NCBI GenBank assembly: GCA_001781415.1
Contig: MFLT01000012.1
Coordinates: 6,485 to 70,484, forward strand
From: Candidatus Kaiserbacteria bacterium RIFCSPLOWO2_01_FULL_45_25
Lineage (GTDB): Bacteria; Patescibacteriota; Minisyncoccia; Phycocordibacterales; UBA918
Length of the DNA: 64,000 bases
Reading direction: 5' to 3'
This document shows positions 23,324-29,056 of the stretch, piece by piece. The notes below the pieces were generated by a model. The model was not told the DNA's origin, searched no databases, and worked only from the letters and a program-made list of their open reading frames with translations. The translations under genes and the position numbers were made by a program. How positions within the stretch are numbered: position 1 is the first letter of the stretch; the number at the start of each line of letters is the position of its first letter.

Positions 23324-23779
23324 TTAGTATGTAACTGATGTATTGGAGTTTGCTTGCATGAGGCAGGTATTAAGAGCTGGTGTCTCTGTCCAGCCACATT
23401 CGCCGGATTGTTGGCGTTCACAAGTTGCTTCTCGGTAGCAGGCATATGACTCACGCCATTCACAAGTGGATACTACATCTCTATTTTCAGAACAGATTTG
23501 ACTACTGCAGCCACCAACATAACAACCTTTTTGTGCCACTGGGGCTGGGGTTTCTTCAGCTGGTGGTGTAGACGAAGCTGGCTCCGGTAAAGCTGGGGTT
23601 TCTACTGGTGTATCAATTGGTTCAATCGGTTTTTCTTCAGATAACGTTGGTGGAGTTGAGGTTGAATCGTTTGTTGTTGAAGTAACACTTAGGGTGGGCG
23701 TTGTTGTGCGAAGTAAAACACTGGCAACAACAATAAGTAGTAGCAGGGTGAGGAGGGCTAATGTGCGCTTCCTATGCAT
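23324..23779 (-). CDS. secreted protein with Pro/Thr-rich linker and Cys-rich C-terminal domain
   Basis: signal peptide/TM anchor, PT-rich low-complexity, 10 Cys in last 70 aa. Confidence 0.55.
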   Translation of the reverse strand: MHRKRTLALLTLLLLIVVASVLLRTTTPTLSVTSTTNDSTSTPPTLSEEKPIEPIDTPVETPALPEPASSTPPAEETPAPVAQKGCYVGGCSSQICSENRDVVSTCEWRESYACYREATCERQQSGECGWTETPALNTCLMQANSNTSVTY

Positions 23780-23873: not shown

Positions 23874-24719
23874 TTAATATCCACAAAATACTATTTCCTC
23901 GGGACTCATACCAAGCTGGTTGGCAAACCACGCTCTAGCCACTTCCCTGTTCCCAACTGCGTCAATCAGTCCTGCTTCCAAGGCAAGTTTGCCTGGCATG
24001 GAAGAACCGTCCGCTAGCTTGGCTATCGTCTCAATTGGTAAGTTGCGGTTTTCTGCCACCTCTGCCACCAATGCTTCGTGCCAGACTGATAGGTCGCGCT
24101 CAAACAATCCACGCTCTTCTTCAGTTAGTGGTTTGTCTGGGTCGCCATAGTTTTTATATTTAGCAGAAGCTAATGAAATGTATTCAATACCTTGGGCGGC
24201 ATTTTGCGCAGAATAGTCTAAGTATGACATTGTAATGCCAATTGATCCTACATCTGAAAACGGAGAGGCGATTATTGTGTCCGCGGCTGAGGCAATTAAG
24301 TAGGCTGCTGACGCTCCTGAATCTACGATATAAGCGGCGTTTGGCATTACGCTTTTCTTTAACTCTGTAGCAATTTGTTCAGCTGCCGCTCCAGAGCCTC
24401 CAGTTGAATTAATGAGAGCAAGTACTCCATAGATACCTGGTTCTGCTTCAGCTTGTTCCAGAAATGACAGGGCGTCTTTCATATTGGTCGAAGTCATTTC
24501 ATTACCATAATCATCAGTAACGCTTCCATAGCCATGAATCTCGCCTTCAATCGGCAAAACCGCAATATTGCAGTAGCCATCCCCAATGTAGGTACTGGCG
24601 TTGAATCCACTCCACTCATCATGCCAGTCACCCCAGATAGTTAATCCAGTATAAAATAGAGCTGGAATAAGGATAGCTACGAGAATGATGGGAGCAAGAA
24701 TCTTGAGGGCAGTGTTCAT
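23874..24719 (-). CDS. sppA: signal peptide peptidase SppA (S49 family, 36K type)
   Basis: N-terminal TM, ...ALINSTGGSGAA..., Ser/Lys dyad context typical of S49; 281 aa. Confidence 0.75.
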   Translation of the reverse strand: MNTALKILAPIILVAILIPALFYTGLTIWGDWHDEWSGFNASTYIGDGYCNIAVLPIEGEIHGYGSVTDDYGNEMTSTNMKDALSFLEQAEAEPGIYGVLALINSTGGSGAAAEQIATELKKSVMPNAAYIVDSGASAAYLIASAADTIIASPFSDVGSIGITMSYLDYSAQNAAQGIEYISLASAKYKNYGDPDKPLTEEERGLFERDLSVWHEALVAEVAENRNLPIETIAKLADGSSMPGKLALEAGLIDAVGNREVARAWFANQLGMSPEEIVFCGY

Positions 24720-25223: not shown

Positions 25224-25267
25224 TAGAAACCGCCGACGCAGTCTAGCTACGCCGGCGGTGTTCTTTT
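25224..25267. terminator. bidirectional intrinsic terminator (CCGCCGACG...CGCCGGCGG)
   Basis: 9-bp GC stem, TTCTTTT downstream, between convergent genes. Confidence 0.55.
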
Positions 25268-25276
25268 AATTTTTCT

Positions 25277-27844
25277 TTATAACTTTAATTTGCTCATAGC
25301 TATTACCTGCTCTTCAAAGGGAGTAAGTGGAAAAGCTACTTCACGCTGACAAACTAACTCATTAATTGTTTTACGAGTGGTTAAGTACACATAACCAGTC
25401 GGTGCAGCAATGCCCCACGGACTTAGTATTTCTTCGCGATACTGTTCTTGGAAATTAATAACCGCCTCTTCGGTCAGCTCATCAAATACGCCGGTAGCTG
25501 GTAATTCAATGGTCAGCTGCTCCGCTAAGAAGGTTTGCAGTTTTTCTACTTCGACAGAATCGTTGTTTTGACCAAGTCGGATAAATGACTTTAGGTATGG
25601 GTCACAGGTGGTAAATGCACCCAAGACCAGTGGTTGTGCAAGGTTGGAAATATTTAAGTCTACACTAGCACTAAGTGACATGTACACATTGTTTGTGCTT
25701 GGCGTCTTCTTCCGATGGTTTCCAATTACTTGAACAGAGTTGGTGTATACGCCTGGCTCAGTTGAACTTGAATATTCTATGGTGTAAGTAACGGTTATCA
25801 GTTCGTCCGCGGCCACCGTACCCAGCTCCCAGAACTCTTCATGAATCAATTCCCCAGCTTCATTTCTTAGTATGTCTGAAAGCACGGCATTGTAGAGCGG
25901 GCCACCAGAATTTTCTACTGTCACCGTGTAGTCCATCGTGGCTGGTACGGTGGTGTTTGGAAAAGCCACCTGCTTACTAACACTGACTTCAGCTGGTTTG
26001 GTGGTATTTGAGCCACCACCAGACCTTCTAATTACCCCAGCTTCTATCACAATTGTGTCATTGTTATTGTCTACCACGTCTTCATTTTCTGTTGCCTCAG
26101 CCGAGACAGTGAGGGGAATGGTGGTTATATTACTAGCCGGTAAGTCAGTTCTAACAATGGCGGTGTAGCTTACTTCACGAGTCGCCCCAGCTGGGATTGA
26201 TCCAATTTCCCATGATGATTGTTTTTTACCATCTGCCAATAATTCACCCGGATTGTCTAAAAAGTTTAAGTGTGGGGCGGCAAAGACATTATTCAAAACT
26301 ACATCACTAGCAGTAGTGTCACCTAGATTTGATACGGTGTAAGTATATTTTACTTCTGAACCGGGCATAATCGGATTATCAGCTGAAGTAGCCTCTACTC
26401 CTACCCACAAGTCTGGACGACCAAAGGCAATATTTCCACCCCAGTCACCAAAGATATCAAAGATAAGTAAGGCCCAGTTCTGACTAAGGATATTTAAGTT
26501 GGCTAGGTTGGTAATATTGGCGGCCGCATAGGCGTTGCCGGTATTAATATTTCCAGAAGCAGTACCTTCAATTTTGTTATCTCCAGTTAGAGCAAAGACA
26601 GAGACGTTGTTTTGAATGGTGGCTTGGTTGGTGTTATTGGTTGTGTAGTTTGCATCCGCTCCCGCTTCCCCTTCGGCCGGAGCATTGTAGACAGTGATAC
26701 CTTGCGGAGTTTCACTCCACAGCATATTGTTTGGTAGTCCAAAGATTTCTCCTGACCAACTACCATGTACACGAATTAGGATAAGGAAAGAATCTCCACC
26801 AATTAGATTTTGATTTACTTGGTTGGTTATATTGCCCGAGGCACTAGCGTCACCAGTAGTGACGTCACCACCCTCATTGGAATTTAGCCCAGTTTCAGCG
26901 CCAACTTCAACATTATTATCAATATCAGCGGTATTGTTGTTATTGGCAGACGTACCGCCACTCACTCCACTACCAGCGAAAAGCTTATTTAGTAAGTCGG
27001 CATTAGGAAGAATAATATCGCCATCTAGACTACCTAAGTTGTTAATTGATACCAATAGATAATTGGAGTCTACAATATTGGTGTTGGCCAAGTTAAAAAT
27101 ATTGGCGGCGGCGTAGGCGTCTCCAGTTGTGATACTACCCTCTCCTGTGCCCTCAATATTATTTTCACCAGTACTGGCGCGAACAATCACGGTGTTATTG
27201 ATGGTGGCGGTATTATCGGTATTAGATTCATTTACAAAACCACCATCTCCACACACCCCAGGAACACAAGGGGTGGTACTTTGTGAAGTTTCAGTTTCAA
27301 AAACTGAAAATAGGTTTCGGACATCGAGTGAGCTGAGGCCAAGAGCGGTAAAAAACTGAATTAGACCATCAGAATTTAGGATATTGGTATTAACTAAATT
27401 CACTACGTTGGCTACTGCATAACCATCGCCAGTGATGATGGTGGCGTCTGTAGCATCGGTAATAGTGTTGTCTCCGGTTTCGGCGGTAGAAGTAGCGAAG
27501 TTATCTATCGTGGCTGTGTTGGTGGCGGACGCTGTCAAAGTATCCTCAAGCCCTAAAAATTCTTCAATCGCTTCTTCTTGCGGAGTGGTGGTTGATTCTT
27601 CGGTTGAATTTTCAATTATATTTGTATTTGCTTCGTTATTAAGTTCCAAAATTGAGACGGCATCACCAGTCTCTACCACTGTTTCTTCTGGGGTTGAATT
27701 AATTACTTCTTCTGAAGTTTCCTCTGGCAATTCTTCTGCTAATAGATACTTAGTTTGCAAAAAAAGTGACTCTAGTGTTATGGCTATGACAAGAAACTTC
27801 GCTAGTATTGAAAACAAAGTCTTGCTCTGGTGTTTTGTATACAT
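25277..27844 (-). CDS. large secreted/cell-surface repeat protein with DUF11-like repeats and C-terminal peptidoglycan-binding-like domain
   Basis: 855 aa; N-terminal signal anchor; four ~40-aa repeats TTGDAYAAANIxNLANxNI; two TYTVxNxG DUF11-like segments; C-terminal ...VEKLQTFLAEQ...GVFDELTEEAVINFQEQY... resembles PG_binding_1. Confidence 0.7.
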   Translation of the reverse strand: MYTKHQSKTLFSILAKFLVIAITLESLFLQTKYLLAEELPEETSEEVINSTPEETVVETGDAVSILELNNEANTNIIENSTEESTTTPQEEAIEEFLGLEDTLTASATNTATIDNFATSTAETGDNTITDATDATIITGDGYAVANVVNLVNTNILNSDGLIQFFTALGLSSLDVRNLFSVFETETSQSTTPCVPGVCGDGGFVNESNTDNTATINNTVIVRASTGENNIEGTGEGSITTGDAYAAANIFNLANTNIVDSNYLLVSINNLGSLDGDIILPNADLLNKLFAGSGVSGGTSANNNNTADIDNNVEVGAETGLNSNEGGDVTTGDASASGNITNQVNQNLIGGDSFLILIRVHGSWSGEIFGLPNNMLWSETPQGITVYNAPAEGEAGADANYTTNNTNQATIQNNVSVFALTGDNKIEGTASGNINTGNAYAAANITNLANLNILSQNWALLIFDIFGDWGGNIAFGRPDLWVGVEATSADNPIMPGSEVKYTYTVSNLGDTTASDVVLNNVFAAPHLNFLDNPGELLADGKKQSSWEIGSIPAGATREVSYTAIVRTDLPASNITTIPLTVSAEATENEDVVDNNNDTIVIEAGVIRRSGGGSNTTKPAEVSVSKQVAFPNTTVPATMDYTVTVENSGGPLYNAVLSDILRNEAGELIHEEFWELGTVAADELITVTYTIEYSSSTEPGVYTNSVQVIGNHRKKTPSTNNVYMSLSASVDLNISNLAQPLVLGAFTTCDPYLKSFIRLGQNNDSVEVEKLQTFLAEQLTIELPATGVFDELTEEAVINFQEQYREEILSPWGIAAPTGYVYLTTRKTINELVCQREVAFPLTPFEEQVIAMSKLKL

Positions 27845-27855
27845 ATAAATTGGCT

Positions 27856-28242
27856 TTATGTAGATCCAGAAATCTTGGTAAGTAGTCGGAGCAAGTCTTC
27901 TAATAGTGACATTAATTCTACAAGTCTAGCTATTTCAGCTTCCTTGTTACTGTTTGAAGTACTGGCGACTATAATTCTCACAAAATCATCTTCGTTGATT
28001 TCTGAGCTATAGAAAAGTTTTCCGGTTGCACTTGTTTCTTGATAATCTTCTACCACCTGGCCATCTACCACTGTTTTTACAGAGATGGATGACGAATTAT
28101 TGGTGCCATTATCAGATGACGACTCTACACTGACATTATTAGTCACCGTAGCCGCTACCGCGGTTGATGCAATGATGCTGGCACAGAAAAATAAAACTCC
28201 TGTTGACCACACGATTATTTTTATGCAGTGTTTGTGTGACAT
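27856..28242 (-). CDS. small secreted Ser/Asn-rich protein
   Basis: 128 aa, N-terminal signal peptide; related low-complexity to neighbours. Confidence 0.5.
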   Translation of the reverse strand: MSHKHCIKIIVWSTGVLFFCASIIASTAVAATVTNNVSVESSSDNGTNNSSSISVKTVVDGQVVEDYQETSATGKLFYSSEINEDDFVRIIVASTSNSNKEAEIARLVELMSLLEDLLRLLTKISGST

Positions 28243-28339
28243 ATACCCTTCTAAAGGCAGTCATCTTTAAAATATTTTTTGATGGCGACCTTTATGAAGG
28301 GGGGAAATACTTCCCCACTTCACTTTGCTCGAACTTAGA

Positions 28340-29056
28340 TTAGTTACGAGTAACACGAGTGATGTTTCGGTTGAGCACATTAGTGATTAGGCCGTCTGAC
28401 TGACTAACGCCAGTTTGAACATTGCCAGCGGCAGCACCGCTTCCACCAGTGCCACCATTTCCACCAACGGCGGTGTTATCACCCATATTGAGCCACCACC
28501 AGAAACTAAAAGCAGCATCCGCGTCGGCGTCACCGCCATTACCTCCCTCTTCACCGTCACCGCCATCACTGTCGTTGCCGCCAGTGCGAGCTCTGACTTG
28601 AAGTTCGTTTTCTAGATTGGCTTCATTATTGTTGGTTACGTCAACATCGTCTGATCCACCAAAGAAGAATGGGAAGTCAAAATCATCATCGCATCCGCAT
28701 CCCTCGACTTCGGTCTCGTTACGATTGATGTCATTATCAATGGTACCAATTGCTAGAGCACCGCCAGTGCTGATATTGCCTCCGGTGCCACCACTACCGC
28801 CGTTGCCTCCATCTCCACCAGTAGCGTCACCATCTTCAGAATCAGCTTCTCCACCATTACCACCCTCTTCACCGTCGCCACCATCGCTGTCGTTGCCGCC
28901 AGTGCTGGCACCAACAGAAAGTGAGTTTGATACGGTGGCGCTGTTAGAGTTGTTTACCGTCACATCATCAGCGTATGCAAATGAAGCAAATGAAAGTGCA
29001 ATCATCGCAACTGTAGCTATGCTAGAAATAGATAGTACTTGAATTATTTTAGTCAT
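28340..29056 (-). CDS. secreted Gly/Asp-rich repeat protein (internal duplication)
   Basis: 238 aa, signal peptide; duplicated ARTGGNDSDGGDGEEGGNGG unit; shares repeat architecture with 25277..27844. Confidence 0.6.
   Translation of the reverse strand: MTKIIQVLSISSIATVAMIALSFASFAYADDVTVNNSNSATVSNSLSVGASTGGNDSDGGDGEEGGNGGEADSEDGDATGGDGGNGGSGGTGGNISTGGALAIGTIDNDINRNETEVEGCGCDDDFDFPFFFGGSDDVDVTNNNEANLENELQVRARTGGNDSDGGDGEEGGNGGDADADAAFSFWWWLNMGDNTAVGGNGGTGGSGAAAGNVQTGVSQSDGLITNVLNRNITRVTRN

What the first reader, a model, noticed from the sequence alone, without database searches (positions are those of the whole stretch)
25277..29056. Operon of three secreted Gly/Asp/Asn-rich repeat proteins sharing a ~40-aa TG-x-A-x-A-x-ANI-x-N-x-x-N-x-NI unit
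The 855-aa protein carries four copies of TTGDAYAAANIFNLANTNIV-like repeats, each preceded by xNxVxVxAxTGxN. It also carries DUF11-like segments and a C-terminal peptidoglycan-binding-like domain.

The downstream 238-aa protein contains the same unit twice, expanded by GGNDSDGGDGEEGGNGG tracts (VRARTGGNDSDGG...AAGNVQTGVSQSDGLITNVLNRNIT). The 128-aa protein between them is a shorter relative.

This is a paralogous family of wall-associated secreted proteins with hypervariable Gly/Asp inserts, candidates for surface-layer or interaction proteins. The nucleotide-level repeats could promote recombination or phase variation.
Basis: seen in the sequence. Interest (0 to 1): 0.6.

Follow-up and report, generated by a model that had tools for sequence, protein, structure and literature searches.

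The report
Conserved Parcubacteria three-gene cell-surface module
Three adjacent genes of a Candidatus Kaiserbacteria genome encode secreted proteins built from the same previously undescribed beta-strand repeat, one of them tethered to the cell wall. The trio is conserved across hundreds of uncultured Parcubacteria, so it is probably a core surface structure rather than a variable antigen.

Summary
On the minus strand, three ORFs (238 aa, then 128 aa, then 855 aa) form one transcription-direction cluster that ends at a strong hairpin.

- **855-aa protein:** it has 4 full copies and 1 half copy of a unit about 55-68 aa long (z = 10-23 against shuffles). These are followed by two CLIPPER/DUF11 domains and a PG_binding_1 domain.
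- **238-aa protein:** it has two copies of the unit. A Gly/Asp/Asn-rich tract is inserted in the loop between the unit's two long strands.
- **128-aa protein:** its relationship to the unit shows only at family level.
- **Organism:** the exact 855-aa protein is OGG69693.1 from Candidatus Kaiserbacteria.
- **Conservation:** the gene order C-(B)-A holds in 70 of 73 species-level loci. The unit profile finds 2,401 protein clusters.

"Hypervariable inserts" and "phase variation" are not supported. The Gly tracts keep the same length in orthologues 82-86% identical, and the DNA repeats are at most 71% identical.

In other lineages the two-unit cassette sits at the C-terminus of proteins carrying VWA, ice-binding-like or galactose-binding-like domains, still directly upstream of the anchor gene.

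Best model (inferred): a wall-anchored scaffold onto which paralogous secreted partners dock through the shared unit.

The parts
28340..29056 (-). Gene C (238 aa). A secreted, very acidic protein (38 Asp+Glu against 7 Lys+Arg, computed pI about 4) with 20% Gly. It is the first gene of the cluster.
   Evidence: ORF. Composition and N-terminal signal-like segment with AYA|DD at aa 29. Homologues P0121-P0223 are all unnamed Patescibacteria proteins.
28703..28966 (-). C unit 1 (aa 31-118), with a Gly/Asp/Glu/Asn-rich insertion of about 28 aa in the loop between the two long strands.
   Evidence: Unit alignment A3. Unit-HMM domain with i-E 2.7e-13.
28646..28702 (-). C inter-unit linker (aa 119-137), sequence GCGCDDDFDFPFFFGGSDD, containing the C-x-C motif.
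   Evidence: Sequence. The C-x-C motif is present in 65 of 82 C-like proteins.
28343..28645 (-). C unit 2 (aa 138-238), with a 40-aa insertion that includes FSFWWWL. The unit ends 2 residues before the C-terminus.
   Evidence: In C-like proteins the last unit ends a median of 3 residues from the C-terminus.
27856..28242 (-). Gene B (128 aa). It has a signal-like N-terminus, one degenerate unit (aa 31-66, ATVTNNVSVESSS...VKTVVDGQVVED) and a C-terminal amphipathic helix (aa 101-124).
   Evidence: ORF. Orthologues in L001 (E 1.5e-18) and L002. Family-level match to the unit HMM in 22 of 62. C-terminal helix muH 1.89, family median 1.5 against 0.83 for internal control segments.
25277..27844 (-). 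Gene A (855 aa). A scaffold/anchor protein, identical to OGG69693.1 / UniRef100_A0A1F6FGR8 from Candidatus Kaiserbacteria.
27737..27844 (-). A N-terminal signal peptide or signal anchor (aa 1-36). AlphaFold2 predicts a helix at aa 8-29, and LLA|EE is a possible cleavage site.
27608..27682 (-). A half unit (aa 55-79, ETGDAVSILELNNEANTNIIE). It corresponds to the second strand of the unit only.
   Evidence: Unit-HMM domain 1, model positions 32-56. T59, G60, A62 and N73 are nearly invariant.
27338..27535 (-). A unit 1 (aa 104-169).
   Evidence: Unit-HMM i-E 1.7e-26. Strands E103-122, E141-156 and E159-168.
27029..27229 (-). A unit 2 (aa 206-272).
   Evidence: Unit-HMM i-E 1.1e-27. pLDDT 90-95.
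26759..26950 (-). A unit 3 (aa 299-362).
   Evidence: Unit-HMM i-E 1.8e-25.
26444..26647 (-). A unit 4 (aa 400-467).
   Evidence: Unit-HMM i-E 7.2e-30.
26054..26398 (-). A CLIPPER/DUF11 domain 1 (aa 483-597). It has no conserved Lys at the isopeptide position.
   Evidence: Pfam PF01345 best stretch. Column frequencies.
25640..26002 (-). A CLIPPER/DUF11 domain 2 (about aa 615-735), with the conserved putative isopeptide triad K624, D657 and N702.
   Evidence: Second Pfam stretch. Strands E620-733. K in 53 of 54, D in 54 of 54 and N in 54 of 54 homologues. Weak profile match to PDB 9IFR, E 0.037.
25280..25612 (-). A C-terminal helical domain containing PG_binding_1 (Pfam match aa 765-802), with invariant C747 and C832.
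   Evidence: Weak profile matches to the PG-binding domains of an endolysin and a spore cortex-lytic enzyme.
25229..25259 (-). Terminator-like hairpin (13 pairs, 9 G-C) 18 nt after the stop codon of A. It probably marks the end of the transcription unit.

Best explanation
This is a conserved, Parcubacteria-wide three-gene cell-surface module.

**Protein A is the anchor and scaffold.** After Sec export, its C-terminal PG_binding_1 domain holds it on the peptidoglycan. Two CLIPPER (CnaA-like) domains form a stalk; the second very probably carries a Lys-Asn isopeptide bond. At the N-terminus, 4.5 copies of an undescribed unit of about 60 aa pack into one rigid beta-rich body. Each unit is a long beta-hairpin with ladders of conserved Asn, Ala and Thr-Gly.

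**Proteins C and B are small secreted paralogues.** C carries two copies of the same unit, B carries one.
- C's units lack the third, core-forming strand that A's units have. They carry a conserved acidic Gly-rich loop at the hairpin tip.
- B ends in an amphipathic helix.

**Inferred mechanism.** C (and B) dock onto A's homologous units, or extend them, by beta-strand complementation. The C-terminal two-unit cassette would then work as a docking tag that displays acidic Gly-rich loops. In other lineages it displays whole binding domains (VWA, ice-binding-like, galactose-binding-like) on a wall-anchored stalk.

**Shown.** The repeats, the domains, secretion-type N-termini, conserved gene order, and the cassette at the C-terminus of cargo proteins.

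**Inferred.** Physical association of the three proteins, outward orientation, and a role in attachment to or interaction with a host or substrate.
For: - **Repeats are significant after composition control**, and six units align with 12 invariant columns.
- **Conserved signature.** Across 374 A-like units, alternate positions are conserved in more than 85-90% of units (N7, A9, A19, T21, G22, N24, T36, G37, A39, N47, N50, N52, G67; N13 80% and A41 80% are less conserved). This means one strand face is conserved.
- **Anchor domains.** CLIPPER x2 and PG_binding_1 score above Pfam cut-offs. K624, D657 and N702 are conserved in 53-54 of 54 homologues, and the K-to-D spacing of 33 residues matches that of 9IFR (PMC12617251).
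- **Rigid N-terminal body.** The AlphaFold2 model of A aa 52-480 has pTM 0.72, and most units have pLDDT around 90.
- **Gene order.** C lies immediately upstream of A on the same strand in 70 of 73 loci from different species. B-like ORFs lie in between. No other neighbour is conserved.
- **Unit counts.** A-like proteins always have 4-5 units without an insert. C-like units carry a loop with a median of 30 extra residues, 38% Gly.
- **Cassette position.** The C cassette ends a median of 3 residues from the C-terminus, and 10 of 56 C-like proteins have N-terminal extensions longer than 100 aa.
- **Cargo domains.** Those extensions contain VWA, Ice_binding, F5/8-type-C and DUF642 domains. Cargo-bearing C-like genes still sit directly upstream of B-like and A-like genes.
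- **Purifying selection on the tracts.** The Gly tracts are conserved in length among close orthologues.
Against: - No direct evidence that A, B and C bind one another.
- I could read only the secondary-structure string of the models, not the 3D coordinates. The hairpin-stack topology and any free sheet edge are therefore inferred.
- A family this conserved (about 40% identity across the class, many invariant residues) looks more like a housekeeping envelope component than a host-specific adhesin.
- Three loci have an A-like gene with no C-like gene upstream.
- Signal peptides were assessed by heuristics only.
Confidence: 0.45

Rival explanations
1. The shared unit is a new cell-wall-polymer-binding repeat, functionally like SLH, CWB2, LysM or choline-binding repeats. 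A, B and C would each bind the wall independently, and the C-terminal two-unit cassette would tether cargo domains directly to peptidoglycan or a secondary wall polymer, not to A.
For: - Tandem copies lie at protein termini, and a terminal cassette is fused to varied extracellular cargo domains. This is the classic architecture of wall-binding modules.
- All three proteins have secretion-type N-termini.
Against: - It does not explain why C-like genes lie directly upstream of an A-like gene in 70 of 73 loci, including the cargo-bearing ones.
- A already has a dedicated PG_binding_1 domain at the opposite end.
- No match to any known wall-binding family in Pfam or NCBIfam.
Confidence: 0.22
2. 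A curli/Fap/chaplin-like functional fibre. C would be the major subunit that polymerises by stacking its beta-hairpin units, A would be the wall-anchored nucleator (like CsgB, TapA or the long chaplins), and B would be a minor or capping subunit.
For: - The anchor has many units and the small secreted paralogue has few, as with long and short chaplins or CsgB and CsgA.
- Conserved Asn ladders lie on one strand face.
- C comes first in the operon, and a hairpin follows its stop codon.
Against: - The fold matches are not significant: TM 0.06-0.10, Foldseek probability 0.04.
- No Curlin_rpt or other amyloid family match.
- C-like proteins with bulky N-terminal cargo and 30-65-aa loops fit poorly with tight end-to-end stacking.
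- No dedicated secretion or chaperone genes are conserved nearby.
Confidence: 0.15
3. A calcium-dependent surface lattice (S-layer-like). The acidic GGx/Asp loops of C would bind Ca2+, as RTX beta-rolls or RsaA do, and would crosslink a lattice held to the wall by A.
For: - Mature C has 38 Asp+Glu against 6 Lys+Arg and 48 Gly in 209 residues.
- The tracts are conserved.
- The literature reports S-layers in Patescibacteria (bioRxiv 10.1101/2024.05.28.596244).
Against: - No GGxGxDxUx nonapeptide is present; the tracts have a GGx triplet period. There is no HemolysinCabind hit.
- C is only about 21 kDa.
- S-layer proteins usually diverge fast, whereas this family is well conserved.
Confidence: 0.1
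4. The repeat similarity is only compositional bias (Asn/Thr/Gly/Ala-rich low complexity), and the three ORFs are unrelated.
For: - The proteins are N-, T- and G-rich.
- B shows no significant similarity to A or C within the window.
Against: - Shuffles that preserve composition never reach the observed scores for A-A, C-C and most A-C unit pairs.
- blastp with composition-based statistics still gives E 4e-4.
- There are 12 invariant columns in register.
- 2,401 library clusters match the 68-position profile.
Confidence: 0.02

Closest known systems
Fibrillar adhesins with a CLIPPER (DUF11, PF01345) stalk and a peptidoglycan-binding anchor, e.g. Acinetobacter silvestris B9T28_05395 (PDB 9IFR; PMC12617251)
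   Same: The layout is the same: an N-terminal functional domain, a stalk of CnaA-like CLIPPER domains and a C-terminal wall anchor. CLIPPER domain 2 conserves a Lys/Asp/Asn triad with the same Lys-to-Asp spacing of 33 residues.
   Different: - There are only two stalk domains, and the first lacks the Lys.
- The anchor is PG_binding_1, not OmpA-like.
- The N-terminal domain is an undescribed 4.5-unit repeat.
- The gene comes with two co-operonic paralogues that share that repeat.
Streptomyces chaplins (long, wall-anchored ChpA-C and short ChpD-H), and curli CsgB/CsgA
   Different: There is no sequence or Pfam relationship. The unit is about 60 aa with 16-20-residue strands, anchoring is non-covalent through PG_binding_1, no fibre has been demonstrated, and some C-like proteins carry cargo domains.
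Cohesin-dockerin display (cellulosome scaffoldins)
   Same: The logic matches: a wall-anchored protein with several tandem modules, plus secreted proteins that carry a duplicated, acidic, C-terminal segment behind variable functional domains.
   Different: This is an analogy only. There is no cohesin or dockerin match, the proposed docking is between homologous units, and the interaction is untested.
RTX beta-roll / HemolysinCabind repeats
   Different: There is no GGxGxDxUx nonapeptide and no Pfam hit. The tracts in C are loop insertions with a GGx triplet period.

Membership tests
CLIPPER / DUF11 (PF01345) | Match to the Pfam model above the gathering score | tested here: met
   47.7 bits against a cut-off of 24.6, in two stretches with the best at aa 483-597. 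Homologues carry PF01345 and often PF24346.
CLIPPER / DUF11 (PF01345) | Lys-Asn intramolecular isopeptide with a catalytic Asp (K715, D748 and N806 in 9IFR) | tested here: inconclusive
   Domain 2 conserves K624 (53 of 54), D657 (54 of 54) and N702 (54 of 54), with a K-to-D spacing of 33 residues as in 9IFR. Domain 1 has no conserved Lys. The profile match to 9IFR is weak (E 0.037), and its residue-level alignment was not printed. Bond formation needs mass spectrometry or a structure.
PG_binding_1 (PF01471) | Match to the Pfam model above the gathering score | tested here: met
   25.5 bits against a cut-off of 23, at aa 765-802. This is marginal, but it is supported by a predicted three-helix region and by weak profile hits to the PG-binding domains of an endolysin and of SleB. 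Actual binding was not tested.
Curli (Curlin_rpt PF07012) / Fap functional amyloids | Sequence match to the repeat family, and a beta-solenoid of stacked strand-turn-strand rungs | tested here: not met
RTX / HemolysinCabind (PF00353) | Tandem GGxGxDxUx nonapeptides | tested here: not met
   The regular expression finds none in A, B or C, and there is no Pfam hit.
Sortase-anchored LPXTG surface proteins | C-terminal LPXTG followed by a hydrophobic segment and a basic tail | tested here: not met
   The only LPATG (A aa 781-785) lies inside PG_binding_1. It is followed by 70 residues of helical domain and is not conserved (consensus LxVxG).
S-layer proteins with SLH, CWB2 or other known anchors | Presence of a known S-layer anchoring or lattice domain | tested here: not met
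   No such Pfam or NCBIfam match in A, B or C. Lattice formation cannot be tested here.
The A/B/C unit family itself (undescribed; signature N-x-A-x3-N-x3-V-x-A-x-TG-x-N ... TG-x-A-x-A-x5-N-x2-N-x-N) | Significant match to the 68-position unit profile | tested here: met
   A has 5 domains (i-E down to 7e-30) and C has 2 (i-E 1e-13 to 1e-15). The window's B does not match, but 22 of 62 B-like proteins do.

The most novel reading that the evidence does not exclude
Parcubacteria have their own modular surface-display system. A two-unit beta-hairpin cassette at the C-terminus of secreted proteins would act as a docking tag. It would insert into or stack onto the homologous 4.5-unit domain of a peptidoglycan-anchored, isopeptide-stabilised stalk protein encoded next to it. 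This would let these episymbionts swap displayed modules (acidic Gly-rich loops, VWA, ice-binding-like or galactose-binding-like domains) used to attach to hosts.
Probability: 0.3. Interest if true: 0.75.

Novelty: new variant of a known kind. Interest (0 to 1): 0.55.

Why it matters
Parcubacteria (Paceibacteria) are a very large, almost entirely uncultured group of small-genome, presumably episymbiotic bacteria. Their surface structures and attachment machinery are essentially unknown at the molecular level.

A three-gene module conserved in hundreds of species, made from a repeat with no described family and no solved structural relative, is a concrete candidate for a core envelope or attachment structure. 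The proteins are short and soluble, they are in public databases only as hypothetical or DUF11 proteins, and the docking hypothesis can be tested directly by complex prediction, pull-downs and metaproteomics.

The negative result also matters. The Gly/Asp tracts are conserved, not hypervariable, so this is not a phase-variable antigen locus.

Tried and rejected
- **PDB sequence searches.** Searches with A, C and the A-family profile found nothing meaningful. The hits for C are linker and low-complexity artefacts.
- **CLIPPER-2 profile against PDB.** It gave spurious summed hits to designed armadillo repeats, and only a weak hit to 9IFR.
- **Foldseek with the full-length model.** It returned only tandem Ig-like proteins (integrins, RbmA, transglutaminases), which reflects the CLIPPER part. 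I therefore modelled the N-terminal region separately.
- **afdb50 library.** It was not available.
- **RTX nonapeptide and LPXTG sorting signal.** Both were checked and rejected.
- **Conserved neighbouring genes.** No sortase, secretion system or chaperone is conserved nearby. Apart from antisense shadow ORFs, no flanking family occurs in more than 15 of 80 loci.
- **Literature.** I found no paper on this cluster. The highly expressed "peptidoglycan-binding domain" proteins of three Paceibacteria in PMC10936435 were considered. The one I could trace (PMX_810_sub_00350) is 692 aa with no DUF11 annotation, so identity with this family is not shown.
- **Phase variation or recombination.** Rejected.
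- The third large homology search (for B) was not spent, because the fetched loci already gave 62 B-like sequences.


Full report
**What is in the window**

Three ORFs lie head-to-tail on the minus strand. In transcription order they are C, B and A.

| Gene | Coordinates | Length |
|---|---|---|
| C | 28340..29056 | 238 aa |
| B | 27856..28242 | 128 aa |
| A | 25277..27844 | 855 aa |

The 238-aa gene is therefore the first gene of the cluster, not the downstream one. C and B are 97 nt apart, and B and A are 11 nt apart. A 13-bp, G+C-rich terminator-like hairpin follows A's stop codon at 25259..25229.

All three products start with a basic n-region, a hydrophobic stretch and a plausible AXA-type cleavage site: C AYA|DD at aa 29, B AVA|AT at aa 30, A LLA|EE at aa 36. 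All are acidic, with computed pI of about 4.1 for A and C and 4.7 for B. No dedicated signal-peptide predictor was available.

The exact A sequence is OGG69693.1 / UniRef100_A0A1F6FGR8, a "DUF11 domain-containing protein" of Candidatus Kaiserbacteria, found on contigs of up to 964,844 bp. The window therefore comes from a Parcubacteria (Paceibacteria) genome.

**Are the repeats real?**

Yes.

- Local alignment scores between the four units of A are 10.7-23.5 SD above shuffles of the same residues. The two units of C give 22.8 SD, and A-against-C pairs up to 10.1 SD, with no shuffle reaching the observed score in most pairs.
- blastp with composition-based statistics still links C to A at E = 4e-4.
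- When aligned, the six units share 12 invariant columns, N-x-A-x3-N-x5-A-x-TG-x-N ... TG ... N-x2-N-x-N. The Gly/Asp/Glu/Asn-rich tracts of C are clean insertions in the loop between the two long strands.
- An HMM built from these six units finds only A and C in all six reading frames of the 64-kb window. A gives five domains, including an N-terminal half unit at aa 55-79, and C gives two.
- B is not significantly similar to A or C within the window.

**Other domains of A**

Pfam gives DUF11 (now named CLIPPER, a CnaA-like isopeptide domain; PMC12617251) in two stretches, plus a marginal PG_binding_1 match. NCBIfam adds nothing for A, B or C.

An AlphaFold2 model built on 54 homologues has mean pLDDT 80.9. 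It shows, in order:

- an N-terminal helix (aa 8-29);
- the repeat region;
- two beta-sandwich domains (aa 479-602 and 620-733);
- a helical C-terminal domain.

In CLIPPER domain 2, K624, D657 and N702 are conserved in 53, 54 and 54 of 54 homologues. The Lys-to-Asp spacing of 33 residues equals that of the crystallised CLIPPER domain (K715, D748). Domain 1 has no conserved Lys. An isopeptide bond in domain 2 is therefore likely but unproven. The profile match to 9IFR is only E = 0.037.

Two Cys pairs are invariant or nearly so: C193/C198 and C747/C832.

**The family and its gene order**

A belongs to a large full-length family of 850-1,100 aa, about 40% identical over more than 90% of its length. 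The named members come from Kaiser-, Nomura- and Pacebacteria.

A scan of one genome per GTDB species confirmed 325 relatives, again from Kaiser-, Nomura-, Zambryski-, Taylor-, Yonath- and Adlerbacteria and "Paceibacterota".

Findings in the 80 loci fetched:

- A C-like gene lies immediately upstream on the same strand in 70 of the 73 loci that have at least 1.5 kb of upstream sequence.
- A B-like ORF was detected between C and A in about half of the loci. It is visibly present, but more divergent, in several more.
- No other flanking gene family is conserved. Apart from antisense shadow ORFs, the next most frequent families occur in at most 15 loci and are housekeeping genes.

The unit profile, run against 1.84 billion cluster representatives, matches 2,401 proteins at E <= 1e-3 and 493 at E <= 1e-30. 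The top 150 are all A-like, with 4-6 matched stretches each.

**Anatomy of the unit across the family**

Across 374 units from 81 A-like proteins, alternate positions are conserved in more than 85-90% of units: N7, A9, A19, T21, G22, N24, then T36, G37, A39, N47, N50, N52 and G67 (N13 and A41 are each at 80%). This is the pattern of beta-strands with one conserved face and Asn ladders.

| Protein class | Units | Distinguishing features |
|---|---|---|
| A-like | always 4 or 5 detectable | no loop insert |
| C-like | mostly 2 | Gly-rich loop (38% Gly), median 30 extra residues; C-x-C in the inter-unit linker in 65 of 82; last unit ends a median of 3 residues from the C-terminus; units stop at model position about 57, so they lack the third, hydrophobic strand of A's units |
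| B-like | 1 | signal peptide, one unit (xVxNxVSxSAxTGGNxA...VxVxTxVNGExVED), a linker and a conserved C-terminal amphipathic helix (muH 1.5 against 0.83 for internal control segments) |

Of 62 B-like proteins, 22 match the unit HMM at E <= 1e-3, even though that HMM was built only from the window's A and C units.

**Structure comparison**

The N-terminal region modelled alone (aa 52-480) has pTM 0.72, with pLDDT around 90 in most units (lower in unit 1 and the inter-unit linkers), so the units pack into one body.

- Foldseek gives no hit at E <= 1e-3. Its best, non-significant hit is the FapC amyloid.

I read this as an undescribed domain with only a class-level, solenoid-like resemblance. 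I could not inspect coordinates, so the topology rests on the DSSP string alone.

**Testing "hypervariable" and "phase variation"**

- In orthologues from other metagenomes, C's GGx tracts have the same length and almost the same sequence. All five gap positions fall outside the tracts.

| Locus | A identity | C identity | B identity |
|---|---|---|---|
| L086 | 99% | 100% | 100% |
| L083 / L084 / L085 | 83% | 86% | 70% |

- At the DNA level the longest repeat is 139 nt at 71% identity, inside C. Tandem Repeats Finder reports only short, imperfect period-9 arrays.
- Insert length varies only across deep divergence.

The tracts are under purifying selection. They are not contingency loci.

**The most informative extra finding**

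Longer C-like proteins in other lineages keep the two-unit cassette at the C-terminus and add an N-terminal extracellular binding-type domain:

- VWA (L073);
- Ice_binding-like (L048);
- galactose-binding-like F5/8-type-C (P0194);
- DUF642 (P0212).

Two such genes examined in context (P0143, P0212) sit in arrays of the form C-like, cargo-C-like, B-like, A-like. The cassette therefore behaves as a portable C-terminal module, genetically tied to the A scaffold.

**Mechanism**

I commit, at about 0.45, to a scaffold-and-docking model.

- A is held on peptidoglycan by its C-terminal PG_binding_1 domain.
- It projects a two-domain CLIPPER stalk and presents a 4.5-unit beta-rich head.
- C and B associate with that head through the homologous unit. 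C's units lack the core-forming third strand, so they would need a partner surface.
- The result displays conserved acidic Gly-rich loops or, in other taxa, whole binding domains.

Rival explanations:

| Rival | Confidence | Main weakness |
|---|---|---|
| The unit is a wall-polymer-binding repeat and the three proteins act independently | 0.22 | Does not explain the tight synteny |
| A curli/chaplin-like fibre with A as nucleator | 0.15 | Cargo domains and long loops fit poorly |
| A Ca2+-dependent lattice | 0.10 | No RTX nonapeptide |
| Compositional artefact | 0.02 | Refuted for A and C |

**Novelty**

The component domains CLIPPER and PG_binding_1 are known. So is the layout of N-terminal head, stalk and wall anchor, which matches fibrillar adhesins (PMC12617251).

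What I found described nowhere is the repeat unit, its sharing among three co-operonic secreted proteins, the conserved C-(B)-A module across Parcubacteria, and the cargo-bearing cassette proteins. Pfam, NCBIfam, the PDB and five of the six literature searches run (the sixth, located the CLIPPER paper) returned nothing on them.

I rate it a new variant of a known kind (surface scaffold and adhesin systems). It is of moderate to good interest because of its breadth in a poorly understood phylum, and the proposed mechanism is unproven.

Noticed in passing
L073:2658-4052, L048:2091-3545, P0194, P0212; context L087 and L088: Some C-like proteins carry N-terminal VWA, Ice_binding-like, F5/8-type-C or DUF642 domains in front of the C-terminal two-unit cassette. 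They still lie directly upstream of B-like and A-like genes, sometimes in arrays of two or three C-like genes.
   Followed up: partly
window 28691..28699 (C aa 120-122, within GCGC): A C-x-C motif lies in the linker between the two units of C, next to an Asp/Phe-rich stretch (DDDFDFPFFF). The motif occurs in 65 of 82 C-like proteins. Its function is unknown; a disulfide or a metal site are possibilities.
   Followed up: partly
window 27871..27942 (B aa 101-124); B-like ORFs in L0xx loci: B-like proteins end in a conserved amphipathic helix, often ...K(Y/N)VFSIF or ...YYVSLL at the extreme C-terminus. This suggests membrane association or oligomerisation.
   Followed up: partly
window 28299..28316: A small G+C-rich hairpin (GGGGAAGTATTTCCCC) lies between the stop codon of C and the start of B, with no U-tract on the coding strand. 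It could modulate the ratio of C to B and A.
   Followed up: no
window 25490..25504 (A aa 781-785): An LPATG sequence lies inside the PG_binding_1 domain. It is not conserved in homologues and is not followed by a membrane segment, so it is a chance match and not a sortase signal.
   Followed up: yes
window 23324..23779 (-): A 151-aa ORF with a signal-like N-terminus, a Pro/Thr/Ser-rich linker and a Cys-rich C-terminal half. It has no Pfam match at E <= 1e-3. A similarly placed 152-aa gene in L001 carries PF27854 (Heavy_Cys_CGP).
   Followed up: partly
window 23874..24719 (-): A peptidase family S49 (SppA-like signal peptide peptidase) gene lies about 0.5 kb beyond the end of the cluster on the same strand, with an opposite-strand 127-aa ORF in between. 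The adjacency was seen only in the 99%-identical relative L086, and even there only partly, since the contig ends inside the gene; L083, L085, L001 and L002 have other genes downstream of A.
   Followed up: no
L053 and L059 (same contig CAZWFX010000002.1): Two A-like paralogues lie about 17 kb apart in one genome. Only one of them has a C-like gene upstream.
   Followed up: no
record titles of many loci: Many loci that clearly belong to the Parcubacteria-type family carry the record title "uncultured Candidatus Saccharibacteria bacterium". This looks like a generic label from a bulk MAG submission and should not be read as taxonomy.
   Followed up: no
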